DNA of 63,599 nucleotides, filler included, from Collodictyon triciliatum (lineage: Eukaryota), in assembly GCA_043381765.1 (NCBI GenBank). It is 7 parts of 7 records of this genome, joined end to end, with 100 filler letters (N's around TTAATTAATTAA, not from the genome) between each part and the next. Parts side by side here need not be neighbours in the genome. Positions count along the whole stretch, not along the records: positions 12,258 to 24,406 come from JBHJMP010002230.1; 6 more parts are not named here. The stretch is one strand, 5' to 3'. Position 1 is the stretch's first letter; every line of letters starts with the position of its first letter. Positions 19,979-24,406 of the stretch are shown one piece after another. The notes below the pieces were generated by a model that worked only from the letters and a program-made list of their open reading frames with translations, did not search any database and was not told where the DNA came from. Made by a program: the position numbers and the translations under genes.

Positions 19979-22900
19979 ATGGGTAGCAGAGAAACGCTGA
20001 CATTAGAGCAGTTTGCGGCCGCCTTGAATATGACCGAGGAGGAAATCGTCTCAGTCACGCGGCTTGACCTCACAAAGCTGCGCCCATCAGGGCTGCCAGA
20101 CGGCATATCGCGAATGACTGCTCTCAAGGAGCTCTATATCCACTTCTCACCTCCACCCACAAATTCTCGCAGAGGTTCCATCCATATGGAGCGCCCTATG
20201 CTTGTGGAGGACTTCAACGACACTTGTTCGGAGGCTACCACTGCCACATCAGCCACTGCAAGGCGGAGAAGGAACATGGGACAAAAAACTTCCAGTTTGA
20301 GAGTTACAGTTCCGGTCTCACGGTTCCCGGACTCTATTGGCAAATTGACACAGATGACAAAGCTTGTGATCAACGAACCTCCTTTTGACACTTTTCCGCG
20401 CTCGATTCTGGAGCTTATTAATCTGCAGGAGCTCACTATAAAAAATTCCCGTATATCCTCATTGCCTGAGGACTTTGGGCGCTTGTCTCTGTTGGAGGAG
20501 CTGAATTTATCCAGCAATCAGCTCACGGGTTTGCCGGCATCCATGGGTCAGATGCTGCACCTGAGGAGACTTAATTGCGCCGATAATCTAATATCCATCA
20601 GCCCTCACAGTAAAAACAAGAAGCTTAAGAGAGCACAATCACAGGCACGACCCAAGGAAAGCCAAACCAAACTTAGCACAATATTCGAGACACCTAAAGC
20701 GGGTGATGGTCAGCATTACAATGAGCTTTTATATAGTCGCATAGCATATGCAGAAAAAATAGATGGCGAGATAAAGCGGGACAAAAAGATATCCAGGTCA
20801 TCCAGTGGACGATTCAGGGATGAGTCTATAGCTGCCGATGAAGAGCAAGTTGATTTTGAAAGTGATGACGAGAGTGGCGATTTCATTTACATCGGGGAAG
20901 AAGATGGAGGAGGAAATATCACATTGAGAAAAAAAGACAAAAAGCTAATATGTAGGTTTCCCTAAATGACATCTTGTATGTCATACAGTATATTTGTGCA
21001 ATTCTCTCCCATTTTGTTTTGTTTTCTTTTTCTTTTTCTTTTTCTTTTTCTTTTTCTTTTTCTTTTTCTTTTTCTTTTTCTTTTTCTTTTTCTTTTTCTT
21101 TTTCTTTTTCTTTCACCAGGGTAATATAAGTTACTAACACCACCGTTAAATATCACGCAGCCTTGCCACCTCAGTTATGCATTATACGCTCGTGCGAAAT
21201 AGAACTGCTAAAGAATTCAGATTTGCCCGTTTTCTTTGTCAATAAGTATCGTATTATTATGTCAAATAAACTAAATCCAATTGAGAGAGCCTTAGAAGCC
21301 TATCGTTTGTTGGGGTCCATTACAAATGTAGACCCTTCTATGTTGGAAGAATACGAAGATTTTGCAGTGCGGCACCTGGATTTCTGGTACGAAGACACAC
21401 CTGAAAAGAATGAACAATTGGTTAAGTACATTCAGCTGGCTATATCTTCAGGAGCACAGGATTTCCTGGAAACTACTATTGTCCAAGATTATTGTGACAA
21501 GTTATGGTATAACGGCACCAAAATAGACGAATACATGTTTTCCAAGACAAGAGATATCTCTCTGCTACGAGATGGAATCAGTGCAAGCTATAACTTCGTC
21601 AAGACCGCAGCGAAAGACCTAACACCAAGTTTTGTACAATCTGTGCGAGCAAAATACATTCTTAGTTTCGTCATGTATTTGATATTCGTGATAATGCTGA
21701 CTCAGTTTGTGGCAGAGAAAGCAAATGGAAATGGAATATCATCTTACCACTTCACCAAAGCCATTCAAGACCTCCTGGCACCGGAGGATGTAAAAGACCC
21801 AAATTCCTTCTGGGAGTACATGGTTGAGGATTTCATCCCATCAGTTTATGTTGGTCCGATTAATTCCAGTCAATTTCAGAATTCGCATGTAAAAGAAGCA
21901 TCCCTTTCGTATTACAGAATAATTGGGTATGTCCGTCTCAGGCAGGTCAAGATTCAAGTTGTCGAGTGCTCCAACCTTGACCCATTTCGCACACCGAACT
22001 CAAGCTATACATTTGAAAAAGATATTCCATGTTTTCCTCCATTCTCTAGTGACCTTGAGCTGAAACGTATAAACAAATCAGAGTCTGAGTTCCAATGGAA
22101 GGATGGAAGTGAGTTGCACACACGGCCAGTTGTCGGACGAATAGGGGTTTGGTATCCAGGCAGCGGCTTTGTTGCTTTTTTGCCAAAGAATGAGAGCGGA
22201 AGCATGAACGTTACCCTCACTTTAAAGCAGAAAGGCTGGATTGATTTACAAACGCGCCTTATTTCTGTCAAATTTTTACTGGCAAATGATAATATGGATA
22301 CCCTCTCCATGGTAAATATCTTGTTTGAATTTCTTCCTAGCGGTGCAGTCATTCCAACAATGAAAATACAGACAATATCTAGGTACTGGTTTGCGGTGGG
22401 AACACCATCTATGATTATCATCAACACCATAATGATTCTATACTTTGTTGGTTTCGTCTTATATGAATTTAAGCAAGCTTCACAGGGCTTACGAGCGTAC
22501 CTCGATGACGAATGGAATTACGCAGATATCATCTTTATCTGTCTACTTGGGGTTGTAATCCTATTCGATCTATATGTTATGACCACAGAAGTAAATACCT
22601 CTGAATTGGAGCAGGAAGATTCTCGCAGCTATTTTAATTTACTCGACTTGATGGAGAACATATACATAATATCAAGAGTAACCAGTGTTTTGCTTTTTAT
22701 TTCTTACATCCGACTTTTGTTTTTTATTGGCATACACGCTTCTTTAGGGCCTATGCTTTTTGTTGTGAAATCAATGGCTGCGGATATTCTTCGGTTTTTG
22801 TTCTTTCTGGCCATTTTCTTTGTGGCTTTTGTCTCTGCTTTCTTTGCTGTGTTTGGCACAAGCCTGGAGGACTATTCTCGTTTCATTACAGGGTCATTCA

Positions 22901-24406
22901 CTATGGCTCGGATGCTTTTTGGTGACTCGGACTTTGAGTCTCTAAATACTACAGACCCAATCATGGGACCCCTTCTATATTTCAGCTACATGTTTGCATC
23001 CGTTATCATGCTACTAAACTTTCTTATTGCTGTTCTAAGTGGTACTTACGAGAAAATTACATCAGATTCTGATAGACAATACAAGAAACTGTTTGTACAA
23101 ACAACGTTAACATTAAGTATATCTCCATTGCCGCCCCCTGTCAATTTATTTTATCCACTATACCGGGCATTAAAATTCACCTGGATTCAGAGGTATCGTA
23201 TCTGGACAAGCGTATGGAACACAAATATGCTAGTCAACGAAGTTACTATGCATTTCCCATACCCCCAAATCTCCAAACTAACGAACCAAGACACTCGCGA
23301 AAAGGCACACTGGCCATATATGTGGCTGGATGTTATATGTATCACACTTTCATCCACTGTTCTAACGACTTTGGTCATTATGTCACTTCCATTCGCTTTG
23401 GTTCTCCGAAATAGGTATCCAAAGTCTGAAGACATGATATACAACTTCGTGATATTCACGTGGAAGTTGTCAGTCCGTTCCCTGTGGGTAGCTACAATCA
23501 TCCCATGGTCTATGCTGTGGTATGCACGATCGATGTTCATCTTCAGCGTCTTTAGGGACGAGTCCAAAATGCAGGTTTGAAGCGCAGTCTAGTCCGATTT
23601 TTTTTTTTTTAACTCAAGCACTGCAATTAAAATAATCGATCACTCGCGCGATAGATTATCGAAAAAGAGATGGTTCTCCTGGAGGATGATGAAGAAGGTC
23701 GATATTTTTTTATTTTTATGTGAAGTAAAAAGCCCCTATGTTTTATTTTAGTAAACCAATATATGATATTAAATATTAGTAACTCTATTAGAGTATTTCA
23801 CTCGTATGGAGGATTTATTTCACGATGAATTTCACCCAAATGAATGGCAAGGGTCATCAGATGGCATCAGACACCCTTATGTTTCAAAAGAAATCATAAA
23901 GCCAAATGGAGATATTACAGCGCGGGTGTCTAACCAATCCGACATACCTGTATCGTATCGATGTAATGCAGTTTGGAGTTTGGAGAAGAACATGTCAATA
24001 ATAGAGTTCCATGTTCTTTCCCCAGGCCTATTAGTTGGTCTTATTCCTAAAGGCTATGAAGAAGGTGTCTTACCTGGATTCGGTGAAAACTCTGTTGCTT
24101 ACGACGCTGAAAATGGTTTTATTATTTTTAATGGGAGCATTGTCGAGCAGAATGCGGAGAAATGGGACACCTTTGGCTCCATGGTACGGTGTATCGCAAA
24201 CTTCCAAAAGGAGGAAGTCACGTTTAGCATTAACCAGCATACTTACAATATCAGCATTCCGAATATGGGGAGTGTTAGATTCTTGCCAGTGACATCTTTG
24301 ATGAAGTACGGCTCTGCCGCAGAGATTAAGATTCGCCAGCGCCAAGGACATGTCACATTTCATCGGCAGCAGACCAACTTCTCCAACATTCCTATGCAGG
24401 ACACAT
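19979..24406 (+). CDS. LRR + polycystin/TRP cation channel + SPRY-domain protein; exons 19979-20951, 21161-23574, 23655-23697, 23792-gap (3' end missing)
   Basis: N-terminal LRRs (LEELNLSSNQLTGLPASMGQM). Polycystin TOP domain (IGYVRLRQVK, WYPGSGFV, WIDLQTR, FEFLPSG). S2-S6 with pore FTMARMLFGDSDF and S6 LLNFLIAVLSGTY, then LPPPVNL. SPRY-like C-terminus (VGLIP...LPGFGENSVAYDAENG...VRCIANFQKEEVTFSIN). Confidence 0.85.

What the first reader, a model, noticed from the sequence alone, without database searches (positions are those of the whole stretch)
19979..24406. Chimeric ion channel: LRR - TRP/polycystin hybrid - extra helices - SPRY
Seen: one spliced frame joins cytosolic-type LRRs (no signal peptide), a pre-S1 segment FLETTIVQDYCDKLWY, a full polycystin TOP domain between S1 and S2, a PKD2-like pore (RMLFGDSDF), a post-S6 LPPPVNL and a SPRY-like domain. 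Established: the TOP domain typifies group-2 TRPs (TRPP/TRPML), whereas the pre-S1 'Q....W' helix and LPPPF TRP box typify group-1 TRPs (TRPC/M/N). I know of no characterised TRP carrying both LRR and SPRY. Inference: an undescribed channel class bridging the two TRP groups, perhaps a ligand-sensing channel. The channel core is a single 2.4-kb exon in an otherwise intron-dense genome.
Basis: partly seen in the sequence, partly recalled or inferred. Interest (0 to 1): 0.78.

Follow-up and report, generated by a model that had tools for sequence, protein, structure and literature searches.

The report
LRR–polycystin-type TRP channel–SPRY gene
This is a real protist gene for an unusual ion channel that joins a polycystin-type pore to protein-binding LRR and SPRY domains and keeps features of both major branches of the TRP channel family.

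Summary
Exon 19979-20951 has LRRs. The single 2.4-kb exon 21161-23574 has a Polycystin (TOP) domain and a PKD2-like pore. Exon 23792-24405 folds as a SPRY domain. The splice model is open for 1348 codons.

No RNA links the exons in this organism. However, the only close relatives are Trinity transcripts of the protist Diphylleia rotans (7 of the top 7 hits, 27-33% identity). They carry LRR, TOP, PKD channel and SPRY in single ORFs, and the best one is collinear with the window across the exon junctions.

The "hybrid" reading holds in part. The S2-to-TRP core scores closest to PKD2L1 (77 bits, against 46-49 for TRPC4 and TRPY1). The S6 and post-S6 profile instead hits Inactive, NOMPC, TRPY1 and TRPC, with no polycystin in the 60 rows shown. 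The predicted pre-S1 helices span the range where group-1 TRPs align. Two further hydrophobic helices follow.

The gene is cut at a contig end (24406); relatives continue with a second SPRY-like domain. Five literature searches found no such channel. Similar TOP-plus-TRP-helix channels with ankyrin repeats turned up in Amoebozoa. The source organism is unidentified. Conduction, ligand sensing and partners are untested.

The parts
19950..19978 (+). 5' UTR part of exon 1, starting at a splice acceptor (ttcatAG|CGGCAC)
   Evidence: A freshwater metatranscriptome contig (X2) covers 19948-20112. Before 19948 it carries 18 letters that are not in the window.
19979..20951 (+). Exon 1: start codon, cytosolic LRR region and an acidic/basic linker (aa 1-324, phase 1 at its end)
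   Evidence: Pfam LRR_14 and LRR_8. The N-termini of P0001, P0004 and P0006 align to this ATG. tblastn links P0001 aa 3-153 to 20000-20599, E 1.9e-08.
20333..20593 (+). Core block of about four 23-residue LRRs (LxxLxLxxNxLxxLP type); one more LRR lies at 20045-20140
20952..21160 (+). Intron 1 (209 nt, GT..AG), holding a (CTTTT)n microsatellite at about 21017-21110
   Evidence: The alignment to P0001 runs unbroken across the junction.
21161..23574 (+). Exon 2: a single 2414-nt exon holding the whole channel core
   Evidence: ORF 21130-23580. phmmer gives P0001 at 1.6e-126 over residues 1-787. AlphaFold pLDDT 84.1, pTM 0.78.
21163..21639 (+). Pre-S1 helical linker domain, about 159 aa, with an invariant Trp (KLW, within 21463-21522) 54 residues before a Phe of S1
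   Evidence: pLDDT is mostly above 90. Group-1 TRPs align from model residue 1-10 onward, Z 14.6-16.3. The Trp is invariant in 8 of 8 sequences. Sequence alone gives no PDB hit.
21640..21726 (+). S1 transmembrane helix
   Evidence: Hydropathy; model helix 161-188.
21790..22377 (+). Polycystin/TOP domain between S1 and S2, with two conserved Cys and five N-x-S/T sequons
   Evidence: PF20519 4.2e-23 over residues 210-405. C269 and C290 are nearly invariant in the 47-sequence alignment. Sequons.
22405..23058 (+). S2-S6, including the S4-S5 'SLGPM' segment, the pore helix, the LFGD filter (22915-22926) and the S6 motif LLNFLIA
   Evidence: PF08016 6e-26. PKD2L1 alignment. Foldseek to PKD2, E 5.8e-21, TMt 0.81-0.84.
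23059..23148 (+). TRP-like helix (invariant Tyr at the position of the TRP-box Trp) and the proline motif LPPPVNL (23128-23148)
   Evidence: Aligns to TRPC4 EWK-FAR...LPPPFNI and to NOMPC ...APSPLNLV. Y41, P58, P60 and N62 are invariant in 7 of 7 sequences.
23332..23553 (+). Two extra hydrophobic helices after S6: S7 at 23332-23388 and S8 at 23479-23553
   Evidence: Hydropathy peaks are 2.13 and 1.2-1.5 in the window. A pair of peaks is aligned in 6 of 7 relatives. Model helices 717-751 and 756-803 have pLDDT 60-74.
23655..23697 (+). Proposed 43-nt micro-exon (IIEKEMVLLEDDEE)
   Evidence: It keeps the frame and has GT..AG borders. It resembles P0001 '...MVPIDEDDVVEE' at the same place. There is no RNA support: the X1 contig runs unspliced through 23669-23914 and may be DNA.
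23792..24406 (+). Exon 4: SPRY domain (fold core 23890-24372), open to the contig end
24407..24506 (.). Contig join (44 N + TTAATTAATTAA + 44 N) that cuts the gene
   Evidence: Relatives continue for 250 aa or more with a second SPRY-like domain. None was detected in 24400-40000.

Best explanation
The locus encodes one subunit of a lineage-specific TRP channel.

Shown here:
- The N-terminus has no signal peptide. It carries about five LRRs followed by a 160-residue helical linker.
- S1 is followed by an extracellular or luminal polycystin TOP domain with the conserved cysteine pair.
- S2-S6 form a PKD2/PKD2L1-like pore whose filter reads LFGD.
- S6 (LLNFLIA) runs into a TRP-like helix and a proline motif of the kind seen in TRPC, TRPN and TRPY.
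- Two more hydrophobic helices follow, then a SPRY domain.

Inferred:
- The protein forms a domain-swapped tetramer that conducts cations, including Ca2+, as PKD2 and PKD2L1 do.
- With two extra helices (an even number), the SPRY domain lies in the cytosol, on the same side as the LRRs.
- LRR and SPRY act as protein-binding modules beneath the pore. Partner binding would reach the gate through the linker and TRP helix, as the cytosolic domains of group-1 TRPs do.
- In evolution, the family is a deep TRPP-type branch that kept the ancestral TRP helix and pre-S1 linker and gained LRR and SPRY. The branch includes ankyrin-bearing TOP channels of Amoebozoa.
For: Domains.

Single-gene architecture:
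- The seven best of 4522 hits (E 1.6e-126 to 7.8e-49) align from exon residues 1-3. All seven are Diphylleia rotans Trinity transcripts.
- LRR, TOP and PKD channel occur in 6 of the 6 scanned. SPRY is above the Pfam cut-off in 4 of those 6.
- P0001 matches the three window exons in order, and the alignment is continuous across both junction regions.
- The spliced frame is open for 1348 codons.

One clade: the window, seven Diphylleia rows and P0010 (also Diphylleia) group with SH-like support 99 in a 67-row FastTree.

Group-1 features. The published statement that pre-TM1 and the TRP helix are present in all group-1 TRPs and absent in group-2, and the fingerprint W..F..N-L-I-A..W, come from PMC9242649 (passages). 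In the window the Trp-to-Phe spacing is 54, against 52 in TRPC5 and 56 in TRPM8 in that paper's table. The Tyr stands 17 residues after the Ala of LIA, where TRPV1 has W697.

Extra helices.

Expression: two metatranscriptome contigs at 99% or more cover 19948-20247, one with a spliced-looking 5' end.
Against: - No RNA joins the exons in this organism. The only contigs over 23669-24405 are unspliced and may be DNA.
- The 3' end is missing, so intactness of the whole gene is unknown.
- S8 is only weakly hydrophobic in the window (1.2-1.5), and the model is less confident there (pLDDT 60-74). The side on which SPRY lies is therefore not settled.
- The pre-S1 resemblance to group-1 linker helices rests on a predicted structure and middling Z scores for helical folds. 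Sequence alone finds nothing.
- The TRP-helix Trp is replaced by Tyr.
- No phylogeny with group-1 TRPs was possible.
- Conduction, tetramer formation and partner binding are inferred only.
Confidence: 0.72

Rival explanations
1. Gene-model artefact: the LRR exon, the channel exon and the SPRY exon belong to two or three neighbouring genes, and the frame-compatible splice sites are chance.
For: No RNA contig bridges any of the three junctions. The micro-exon is only 43 nt and was found by eye.
Against: The same domain order is found on single transcripts of a second organism: 6 of 6 scanned have LRR plus channel and 4 of 6 also have Pfam-significant SPRY. P0001 is collinear with all three exons, and the alignment runs through both junctions. 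There is no stop in 1348 codons. Exon 2 has no start-codon context of its own that relatives match: they align from exon residues 1-3, which lie 196-585 residues into the relatives.
Confidence: 0.05
2. Recent mosaic: the gene arose by recombination between a TRPP-type channel (S1-TOP-S5/pore) and a group-1 or TRPY-type channel (S6, TRP helix, pre-S1 linker). On this view it tells nothing about ancestral TRPs.
For: There is a sharp contrast between segments. S2-to-TRP overall scores PKD2L1 77 bits against TRPC4 46. S6 plus post-S6 scores group-1 and TRPY first, with PKD2 only at E 0.08.
Against: The same combination is shared by all eight Diphylleia clusters. It is also found in TOP-domain proteins of other lineages with other N-terminal repeats: P0138 of Pyxidicula, P0017 and P0040 from ENA assemblies, and partly P0033 of Cavostelium. 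So it is old and widespread, not a recent event. All of it lies in one exon, with no intron at the supposed seam.
Confidence: 0.15
3. Non-conducting or accessory subunit: like polycystin-1-type proteins, this paralogue does not form a homomeric pore. It would co-assemble with other family members as a receptor or scaffold subunit.
For: The family is multi-copy in Diphylleia, with eight 50%-identity clusters. Paralogues differ in the filter (LFGD, LFGN, LFGE, LFAD). One carries a RasGEF domain, which suggests signalling roles beyond conduction.
Against: The window copy keeps the Gly-Asp of the PKD2L1 filter, the S6 LLNFLIA motif and a full 6-TM fold with high model confidence. It has no PLAT, GPS or 11-TM layout.
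Confidence: 0.2
4. Decaying or truncated copy: the locus is a pseudogene or an assembly fragment of a gene that is no longer functional.
For: The ORF runs into a contig end with no stop seen. No second SPRY was found downstream in the window. The SPRY score is below Pfam's cut-off.
Against: There are 4044 nt of open frame across four exons with conserved family motifs intact. The 5' exon is transcribed. The sequence after the join is another contig and need not be adjacent. A contig of run X1 continues 119 nt beyond 24405.
Confidence: 0.08

Closest known systems
Polycystin-2 family (TRPP: PKD2, PKD2L1)
   Same: TOP/polycystin domain between S1 and S2 with the conserved Cys pair. The 6-TM fold matches (Foldseek E 5.8e-21, TMt 0.81-0.84; VIA Z 30 over 447 residues). 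The pore motif aligns to LGD of PKD2L1. These are the best sequence matches in the PDB.
   Different: It has a long pre-S1 helical linker, a TRP-like helix with a proline motif, N-terminal LRRs, two extra helices and C-terminal SPRY. It has no EF-hand: 9 of the 47 proteins scanned have one, the window has none. S6 reads N-F-L-I-A, whereas two canonical PKD2-like hits read N-M-F-L-A.
Group-1 TRPs (TRPC, TRPN/NOMPC, TRPM, TRPV) and fungal TRPY1
   Same: S6 plus TRP helix: profile hits Inactive 3.5e-09, NOMPC 9.6e-09, TRPY1 7.2e-08, TRPC6 1.6e-05. The proline motif aligns with LPPPFNI of TRPC4 and APSPLNLV of NOMPC. The pre-S1 Trp is spaced as in TRPC5 and TRPM8. Structural alignment spans model residues 1..666.
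   Different: It has a TOP domain, which group-1 channels lack. Overall core similarity is lower than to PKD2L1 (46-49 against 77 bits). Tyr replaces the TRP-box Trp. LRRs stand in place of ankyrin repeats or MHR domains. The names 'EWKFAR box' and 'TRP box 2' are recalled, not from a call.
Oomycete PKDRR proteins (PKD2-like channel fused to RyR 'R' domains), PMC7399828
   Same: A protist lineage-specific fusion of a PKD2-type channel with cytosolic domains otherwise known from ryanodine receptors (passages).
   Different: PKDRR carries RyR 'R' domains, not SPRY. The paper's main text has no occurrence of 'SPRY' and its only 'leucine' refers to a selectivity filter. No R domain was found here.
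Polycystin-1 family (PKD1, PKD1L)
   Same: It combines LRRs with a TOP-domain, PKD-channel-like membrane part (recalled knowledge of PKD1).
   Different: In PKD1 the LRRs are extracellular behind a signal peptide and come with GPS/GAIN, PLAT and 11 TM helices (recalled). Here there is no signal peptide or TM helix before S1 and no PLAT or GPS. The LRRs should therefore be cytosolic.
Amoebozoan/environmental ankyrin-TOP-PKD proteins (P0033 Cavostelium, P0017 ENA, P0138 Pyxidicula, P0040 ENA)
   Same: TOP domain plus PKD channel plus a TRP-like helix and P.P.NL motif (full in P0017, P0138 and P0040; partial in P0033). P0040 and P0033 are the next branches outside the family in the tree.
   Different: Ankyrin repeats or no recognised N-terminal repeats instead of LRR. 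No SPRY. They are unannotated and, by my searches, undescribed.

Membership tests
TRPP / polycystin-2-like channels | Polycystin (TOP) domain inserted between S1 and S2 | tested here: met
   PF20519 4.3e-23, profile positions 5-196 of 199. The fold overlays PKD2 over model residues 161-639, Z 30.
TRPP / polycystin-2-like channels | PKD_channel 6-TM pore domain, nearest to PKD2/PKD2L1 | tested here: met
   PF08016 6.2e-26. PKD2L1 1.9e-37. Without TOP, PKD2L1 still scores 77 bits against 46-49 for TRPC4 and TRPY1.
TRPP / polycystin-2-like channels | Filter Gly-Asp (LGD in PKD2L1) after the pore helix | tested here: met
   LFGD aligns with ILGD of PKD2L1. It reads LFG[DEN] in 6 of the 7 relatives aligned.
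TRPP / polycystin-2-like channels | Group-2 trait: no pre-TM1 domain and no TRP helix (PMC9242649) | tested here: not met
   A TRP-like helix and a pre-S1 linker are present. This is why I call it a variant, not an ordinary member.
TRPP / polycystin-2-like channels | Tetrameric cation conduction | not testable with these tools
   Needs expression and electrophysiology or cryo-EM.
Group-1 TRP channels | TRP domain helix after S6 with a conserved Trp | tested here: inconclusive
   The helix is present and aligns to the TRPC4, NOMPC and TRPY1 TRP helices. The Trp position holds an invariant Tyr, as in the aligned TRPY1 segment.
Group-1 TRP channels | S6 fingerprint N-x-L-I-A | tested here: met
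   LLNFLIA. N20, L22 and A24 are invariant in 7 of 7. The fingerprint is from PMC9242649.
Group-1 TRP channels | Pre-TM1 Trp and linker helices coupled to the TRP helix | tested here: inconclusive
   The Trp is invariant in 8 of 8. Structural alignments of TRPC3, TRPC1/5, TRPM7, TRPV1 and NOMPC start at model residues 1-10 with 321-404 aligned residues, Z 14.6-16.3. This rests on a predicted model and helical Z scores, and sequence finds nothing.
Group-1 TRP channels | Short S1-S2 loop (no TOP domain); nearest sequence relatives are group-1 | tested here: not met
   It has a TOP domain and PKD2L1 is the nearest relative.
SPRY domain (PF00622) | Match to the family model above its cut-off | tested here: inconclusive
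   20.3 bits against a cut-off of 26.3. The homologous segment of P0001, P0002, P0004 and P0006 scores 37-78 bits.
SPRY domain (PF00622) | SPRY beta-sandwich fold | tested here: met
   The model has pLDDT 72, and 75-91 per ten-residue block over residues 41-180. The Foldseek list is SPRY-domain entries throughout, E from 3.8e-08, probability 1.00.
Leucine-rich repeats | Repeated LxxLxLxxNxL units above Pfam cut-offs | tested here: met
   LRR_14 50.6 bits (cut-off 40), LRR_8 35.8 (27), LRR_4 34.7 (27).
Polycystin-1 family | Signal peptide, extracellular LRR, GPS/GAIN, PLAT, 11 TM helices | tested here: not met
   There is no hydrophobic segment before S1 and no PLAT or GPS hit. The feature list itself is recalled.
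Oomycete PKDRR | RyR 'R' domains on a PKD channel | tested here: not met
   No such Pfam hit in the window or in the six relatives scanned.

The most novel reading that the evidence does not exclude
The window gene, its Diphylleia paralogues and the ankyrin-bearing TOP channels of Amoebozoa together form an unrecognised deep TRP lineage. It combines the TOP domain of group 2 with the pre-S1 linker, S6 fingerprint and TRP helix of group 1. If so, the common ancestor of TRPP/TRPML and group-1 TRPs already had the linker/TRP-helix gating apparatus, and animal polycystins and mucolipins lost it after gaining the TOP domain. Within that lineage, the LRR/SPRY branch would be a channel gated or anchored by cytosolic protein partners, possibly small-GTPase signalling, given the RasGEF-bearing paralogue.
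Probability: 0.35. Interest if true: 0.8.

Novelty: new variant of a known kind. Interest (0 to 1): 0.68.

Why it matters
TRP channels are split into group 1, which has a TRP helix and pre-S1 coupling domain, and group 2, which has a TOP domain and lacks them. How the two are related is debated. A natural channel carrying both sets of features gives a concrete object for rooting the TRP tree. It also allows a test of whether TOP-domain sensing and TRP-helix coupling can work in one protein. LRR and SPRY are protein-recognition modules not reported on any TRP in my searches. They suggest a way of coupling a Ca2+-permeable pore to cytosolic partners in a little-studied eukaryotic lineage. The nearest relatives are all from Diphylleia (CRuMs).

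Tried and rejected
- The word-indexed homologue search with the channel exon found nothing at E <= 0.001. The full HMMER search did find relatives.
- No whole genome is held for this window, so paralogues and the missing 3' end could not be sought.
- RNA evidence was thin. Two runs held small shares. X1, whose kind is only a guess, covers 23669-24405 contiguously, including the proposed intron 23698-23791. 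X2 covers only 19948-20247. No joints were reported. The uncovered channel exon says nothing either way.
- A second SPRY-like domain was sought downstream with a family HMM over 24400-40000. The best E was 2.2, so it was not found. tblastn with 11 family proteins also gave nothing beyond 24342 apart from LRR noise.
- A metagenome scan with the SPRY exon found no relative.
- The pre-S1 region alone gave no significant PDB sequence hit (best E 0.32) and no usable ESM Atlas hit.
- A complex-prediction job with the LRR part against the SPRY part returned no verdict.
- Taxon identification failed. A WD40 exon gave one fungal hit at 32% identity. The LRR-receptor ORF gave mainly plant receptor-like proteins at about 30%.
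- The IQ-TREE run did not finish in the time limit. The tree cited is FastTree only. Rows longer than 1300 aa among P0008-P0074 were left out.
- Rejected: a polycystin-1-type receptor (no signal peptide, PLAT or GPS) and oomycete PKDRR (no R domains).

Full report
**What is there.** The window is eukaryotic DNA of about 35% G+C. It is a chain of contigs joined by 44 N + TTAATTAATTAA + 44 N spacers at six places. That such spacers are six-frame stop linkers is my recollection. The finding lies on the piece 12258-24406.
- ORF 19901-20965: LRR_14 1.6e-13, LRR_8 6.7e-09 and LRR_4 1.9e-08, all above Pfam's cut-offs.
- ORF 21130-23580 (816 aa): Polycystin_dom 4.3e-23 and PKD_channel 6.2e-26.
- ORF 23773-24405: SPRY at 5.9e-4, 20.3 bits, below the 26.3 cut-off.

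**The gene model.** The frame is kept and 1348 codons are open. Hydropathy shows no hydrophobic segment before S1 (model aa 485-513). It then shows S2-S6, one strong extra helix (1049-1067) and a weaker one (about 1098-1122).

**Relatives.**
- The word-indexed search found nothing.
- HMMER over 1.84 billion cluster representatives found 4522 proteins at E <= 0.001, of which 45 were at <= 1e-30.
- The seven best (1.6e-126 to 7.8e-49, 27-33% identity) differ from all others. They align from exon residues 1-3, so they share the pre-S1 region. The match starts 196-585 residues into each relative.
- All seven are Trinity transcripts of Diphylleia rotans in EukProt.
- Of the six I could scan in one call, 6 of 6 have LRR + Polycystin_dom + PKD_channel. 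P0007 was left out because of the size limit; its longer isoform P0156 was scanned later.
- Of those six, 4 have SPRY above the cut-off (37-78 bits). P0005 has it at 17.4 bits and P0003 has none.
- The longer isoforms: P0152 has LRR-TOP-PKD with no Pfam SPRY. P0154 adds a RasGEF domain (4e-16). P0156 has LRR-TOP-PKD.
- Among 47 proteins scanned (the window exon, seven Diphylleia proteins and 39 other top hits), LRR_8 occurs in 7 and SPRY in 4. All of these are Diphylleia.
- Among the 159 proteins then stored, a SPRY model built from the family matches only family members, which is circular for those used to build it. The best other protein has E 2.2. A simple LRR pattern occurs twice or more only in 7 family entries.

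**Is it one gene?** RNA of this organism does not answer. Run X2 (a freshwater metatranscriptome) covers only 19948-20247. Run X1, whose kind is a guess, covers 23669-24405 without a splice. The support is comparative.
- P0001 matches the window in order: aa 3-153 to 20000-20599 (1.9e-08), aa 196-974 to 21163-23520 (1.9e-120), and aa 1074-1204 to 23953-24342 (8.5e-15).
- The MAFFT alignment runs without a break across the exon 1/2 junction (...KKLIS|LPPQLC... against ...MKPINMLPPEML...).
- The alignment places the micro-exon (MVLLEDDEE) against MVPIDEDDVVEE of P0001.
- The N-termini of P0001, P0004 and P0006 align to the ATG at 19979.
- These relatives are transcripts, so the architecture exists on single mRNAs in at least one organism.

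**The missing end.** The relatives continue for 250 or more residues with a second SPRY-like domain. The window's frame simply runs into the contig end. I found no continuation in 24400-40000. The next piece need not be adjacent.

**The channel core.**
- PKD2L1 (5z1w) is the best solved relative: 1.9e-37 over exon residues 169-643. LFGD lies opposite ILGD.
- The AlphaFold model of exon 2 (47-row alignment) has pLDDT 84.1 and pTM 0.78.
- Foldseek puts PKD2, PKD2L1 and PKD1L3 chains first (E 5.8e-21, TMt 0.81-0.84).
- The two cysteines nearly invariant in the 47 sequences (C269, C290) are present.
- The TOP domain has five N-x-S/T sequons. This fits an extracellular or luminal location.

**Group-1 features.** A 123-residue piece from S6 onward finds TRPY1 (3e-05), then TRPC4, TRPC3, TRPC6 and TRPC5 (2.4e-4 to 2e-3), before PKD2 (0.08). 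The TRPC4 alignment runs ...SDRQYKKLFVQTTL...LPPPVNLF against ...ADIEWK-FARTKL...LPPPFNII.

A 64-position profile of this segment was built from the window and six Diphylleia proteins. Y41, P58, P60 and N62 are invariant in it. It hits Inactive 3.5e-09, NOMPC 9.6e-09 (aligned through APSPLNLV), TRPY1 7.2e-08, Nanchung 8e-07, nvTRPM2 1.1e-06 and TRPC6 1.6e-05. None of the 60 rows shown (of 214 at E <= 1) is a polycystin or mucolipin.

Without Foldseek, VIA-align gives PKD2 Z 30.2 over model residues 161..639. It gives TRPM7, TRPC1/5, TRPC3, TRPV1, TRPY1 and NOMPC Z 14.6-16.3 over ranges starting at 1-10 and ending at 655-667, with 321-404 aligned residues. Such Z values are middling for helical folds, and the ranges give only first and last residues.

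PMC9242649 (passages read) states that pre-TM1 and the TRP helix are present in all group-1 and absent in group-2 TRPs. [quoted passage not shown] Against that fingerprint the window has:
- the pre-S1 Trp, invariant in 8 of 8, standing 54 residues before a Phe of S1 (52 in TRPC5 and 56 in TRPM8 by the paper's table);
- N-F-L-I-A in S6;
- Tyr exactly 17 residues after that Ala, where TRPV1 has W697.

**Which group is it nearer to?** The 256 residues from S2 to the proline motif, without TOP, still score PKD2L1 77 bits, PKD2 about 69, TRPY1 48.8 and TRPC4 46. So the protein is a TRPP-type channel overall, with an S6/TRP segment and a linker of group-1 kind. I could not obtain group-1 sequences for a joint tree. 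'Bridging' is therefore shown at the level of features, not of phylogeny.

**A wider clade.** In a FastTree of 67 rows, the window, the seven Diphylleia rows and P0010 (also Diphylleia) form a group with SH-like support 99. The 67 rows are the window exon, seven Diphylleia proteins and the members of P0008-P0074 up to 1300 aa; longer rows were left out. The next branches are P0040 (an ENA assembly) and P0033 (Cavostelium apophysatum).

The S6/TRP profile reaches its last positions at domain E < 1e-3 in 19 stored proteins. Fifteen are Diphylleia entries. The other four are P0017/P0161 (ENA), P0138 (Pyxidicula operculata) and P0040. Their domains are:
- P0017: ankyrin repeats + TOP + PKD, with a weak YVC1_C match;
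- P0138: TOP + PKD + YVC1_C at 29.1 bits (cut-off 27), with Glu-Trp in the helix;
- P0033: ankyrin + TOP + PKD.

Two canonical PKD2-like hits (P0011, P0013) lack the helix motif and the proline motif. TOP-domain channels with a TRP helix thus exist in at least Amoebozoa and Diphylleia.

**Extra helices and SPRY.** After the proline motif, six of the seven relatives aligned show two hydrophobic peaks at the aligned places. The second carries a W-x-x-T/S-x-x-P/x-W pattern. P0156 ends earlier. In the window the peaks are 2.13 and 1.2-1.5. The model has helices 717-751 and 756-803 at pLDDT 60-74. Two helices would return the chain to the cytosol, but this is not settled.

The SPRY exon modelled with six relatives has pLDDT 72, and 75-91 per ten-residue block over residues 41-180. 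Its Foldseek list is SPRY-domain entries throughout: RanBP9/10, HERC1, TRIM9/67, SPSB1/2, GUSTAVUS and RyR (E from 3.8e-08, probability 1.00, TM about 0.5-0.6).

**Mechanism.** The domain order, the fold, the filter and the gating-helix motifs are shown. Three steps are inferred: tetramer formation and cation/Ca2+ conduction, by homology to PKD2 and PKD2L1; cytosolic placement of both LRR and SPRY; and coupling of partner binding to the gate through the linker and TRP helix. A test of LRR-SPRY contact gave no verdict.

**Literature.** Five full-text searches listed no paper on a TRP or polycystin with LRR or SPRY domains, nor on Diphylleia channels. Term look-ups found no 'SPRY', 'LRR' or 'leucine-rich' in PMC12749960 or in bioRxiv 10.64898/2026.06.15.732245, and no 'SPRY' in PMC7399828. 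The closest precedent is the oomycete PKDRR family, a PKD2-like channel fused to RyR 'R' domains (PMC7399828, passages). Supplementary files were not consulted, and domain tables there could list such architectures.

**Organism.** It is unidentified. No protein closer than 33% to the channel exists in the collection. A WD40 exon and an LRR-receptor ORF from the window gave no near-identical hit, so the source is probably not D. rotans itself. The X2 hit places it, or a near relative, in fresh water. A diphyllatean or other CRuMs relative is a guess based on this one gene family.

**Verdict.** This is a new variant of a known kind: a TRPP-type channel with a group-1-like gating apparatus and LRR/SPRY modules.

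Noticed in passing
window 12158-12257, 24407-24506, 30796-30895, 36744-36843, 48988-49087, 61218-61317: Six identical spacers (44 N + TTAATTAATTAA + 44 N) show the window is a chain of contigs. Most contig ends abut microsatellites or homopolymers, so neighbouring pieces may not be adjacent in the genome.
   Followed up: partly
window 19948-19950: A metatranscriptome contig joins 18-20 letters absent from the window to an acceptor (ttcatAG|CGGCAC) 30 nt before the start codon. This is either a distant 5' UTR exon or a trans-spliced leader.
   Followed up: partly
window 24341-24405 and beyond: One contig of run X1 (95-99% alike, with a few substitutions and indels) runs 119 nt past the contig end. 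Public reads could therefore extend the gene.
   Followed up: no
proteins P0017/P0161, P0033, P0040, P0138 (not in the window): These are TOP-domain PKD channels from Amoebozoa (Cavostelium, Pyxidicula) and ENA assemblies. They carry ankyrin repeats and/or a TRPY1-like C-terminal match, and a TRP-helix plus P.P.NL motif. They look like an undescribed set of group-1/group-2 intermediates.
   Followed up: partly
protein P0154 (Diphylleia rotans): One paralogue has the order LRR, TOP, PKD channel, weak SPRY, then a C-terminal RasGEF domain (4e-16). This hints at a link to small-GTPase signalling.
   Followed up: no
window 15237-19147 (-): A WD40-repeat gene made of short exons lies head-to-head with the channel gene. 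The gap to the channel's acceptor is about 800 bp and is relatively G+C-rich, so it may be a shared promoter region.
   Followed up: partly
window 39005-40324 and 43318-43788 (-): These are plant-type LRR ORFs with a Cys-rich region and a C-terminal hydrophobic segment. The best hits are plant receptor-like proteins at about 30% identity. Only two EukProt Trinity proteins cover 95% of the query.
   Followed up: partly
window 52539-53878 (-): Two tandem DOMON + EGF-like units (DOMON 7e-18 each) sit next to N gaps.
   Followed up: no
window 21017-21110 and 24507-24606: (CTTTT)n in intron 1 and (GAAAA)n just after the contig join are reverse complements of each other. They flank exons 2-4.
   Followed up: no
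window 10260-10757 (-): An ORF with a NuBaID C-terminal domain match (6.6e-05, 23.4 bits, cut-off 20.2).
   Followed up: no
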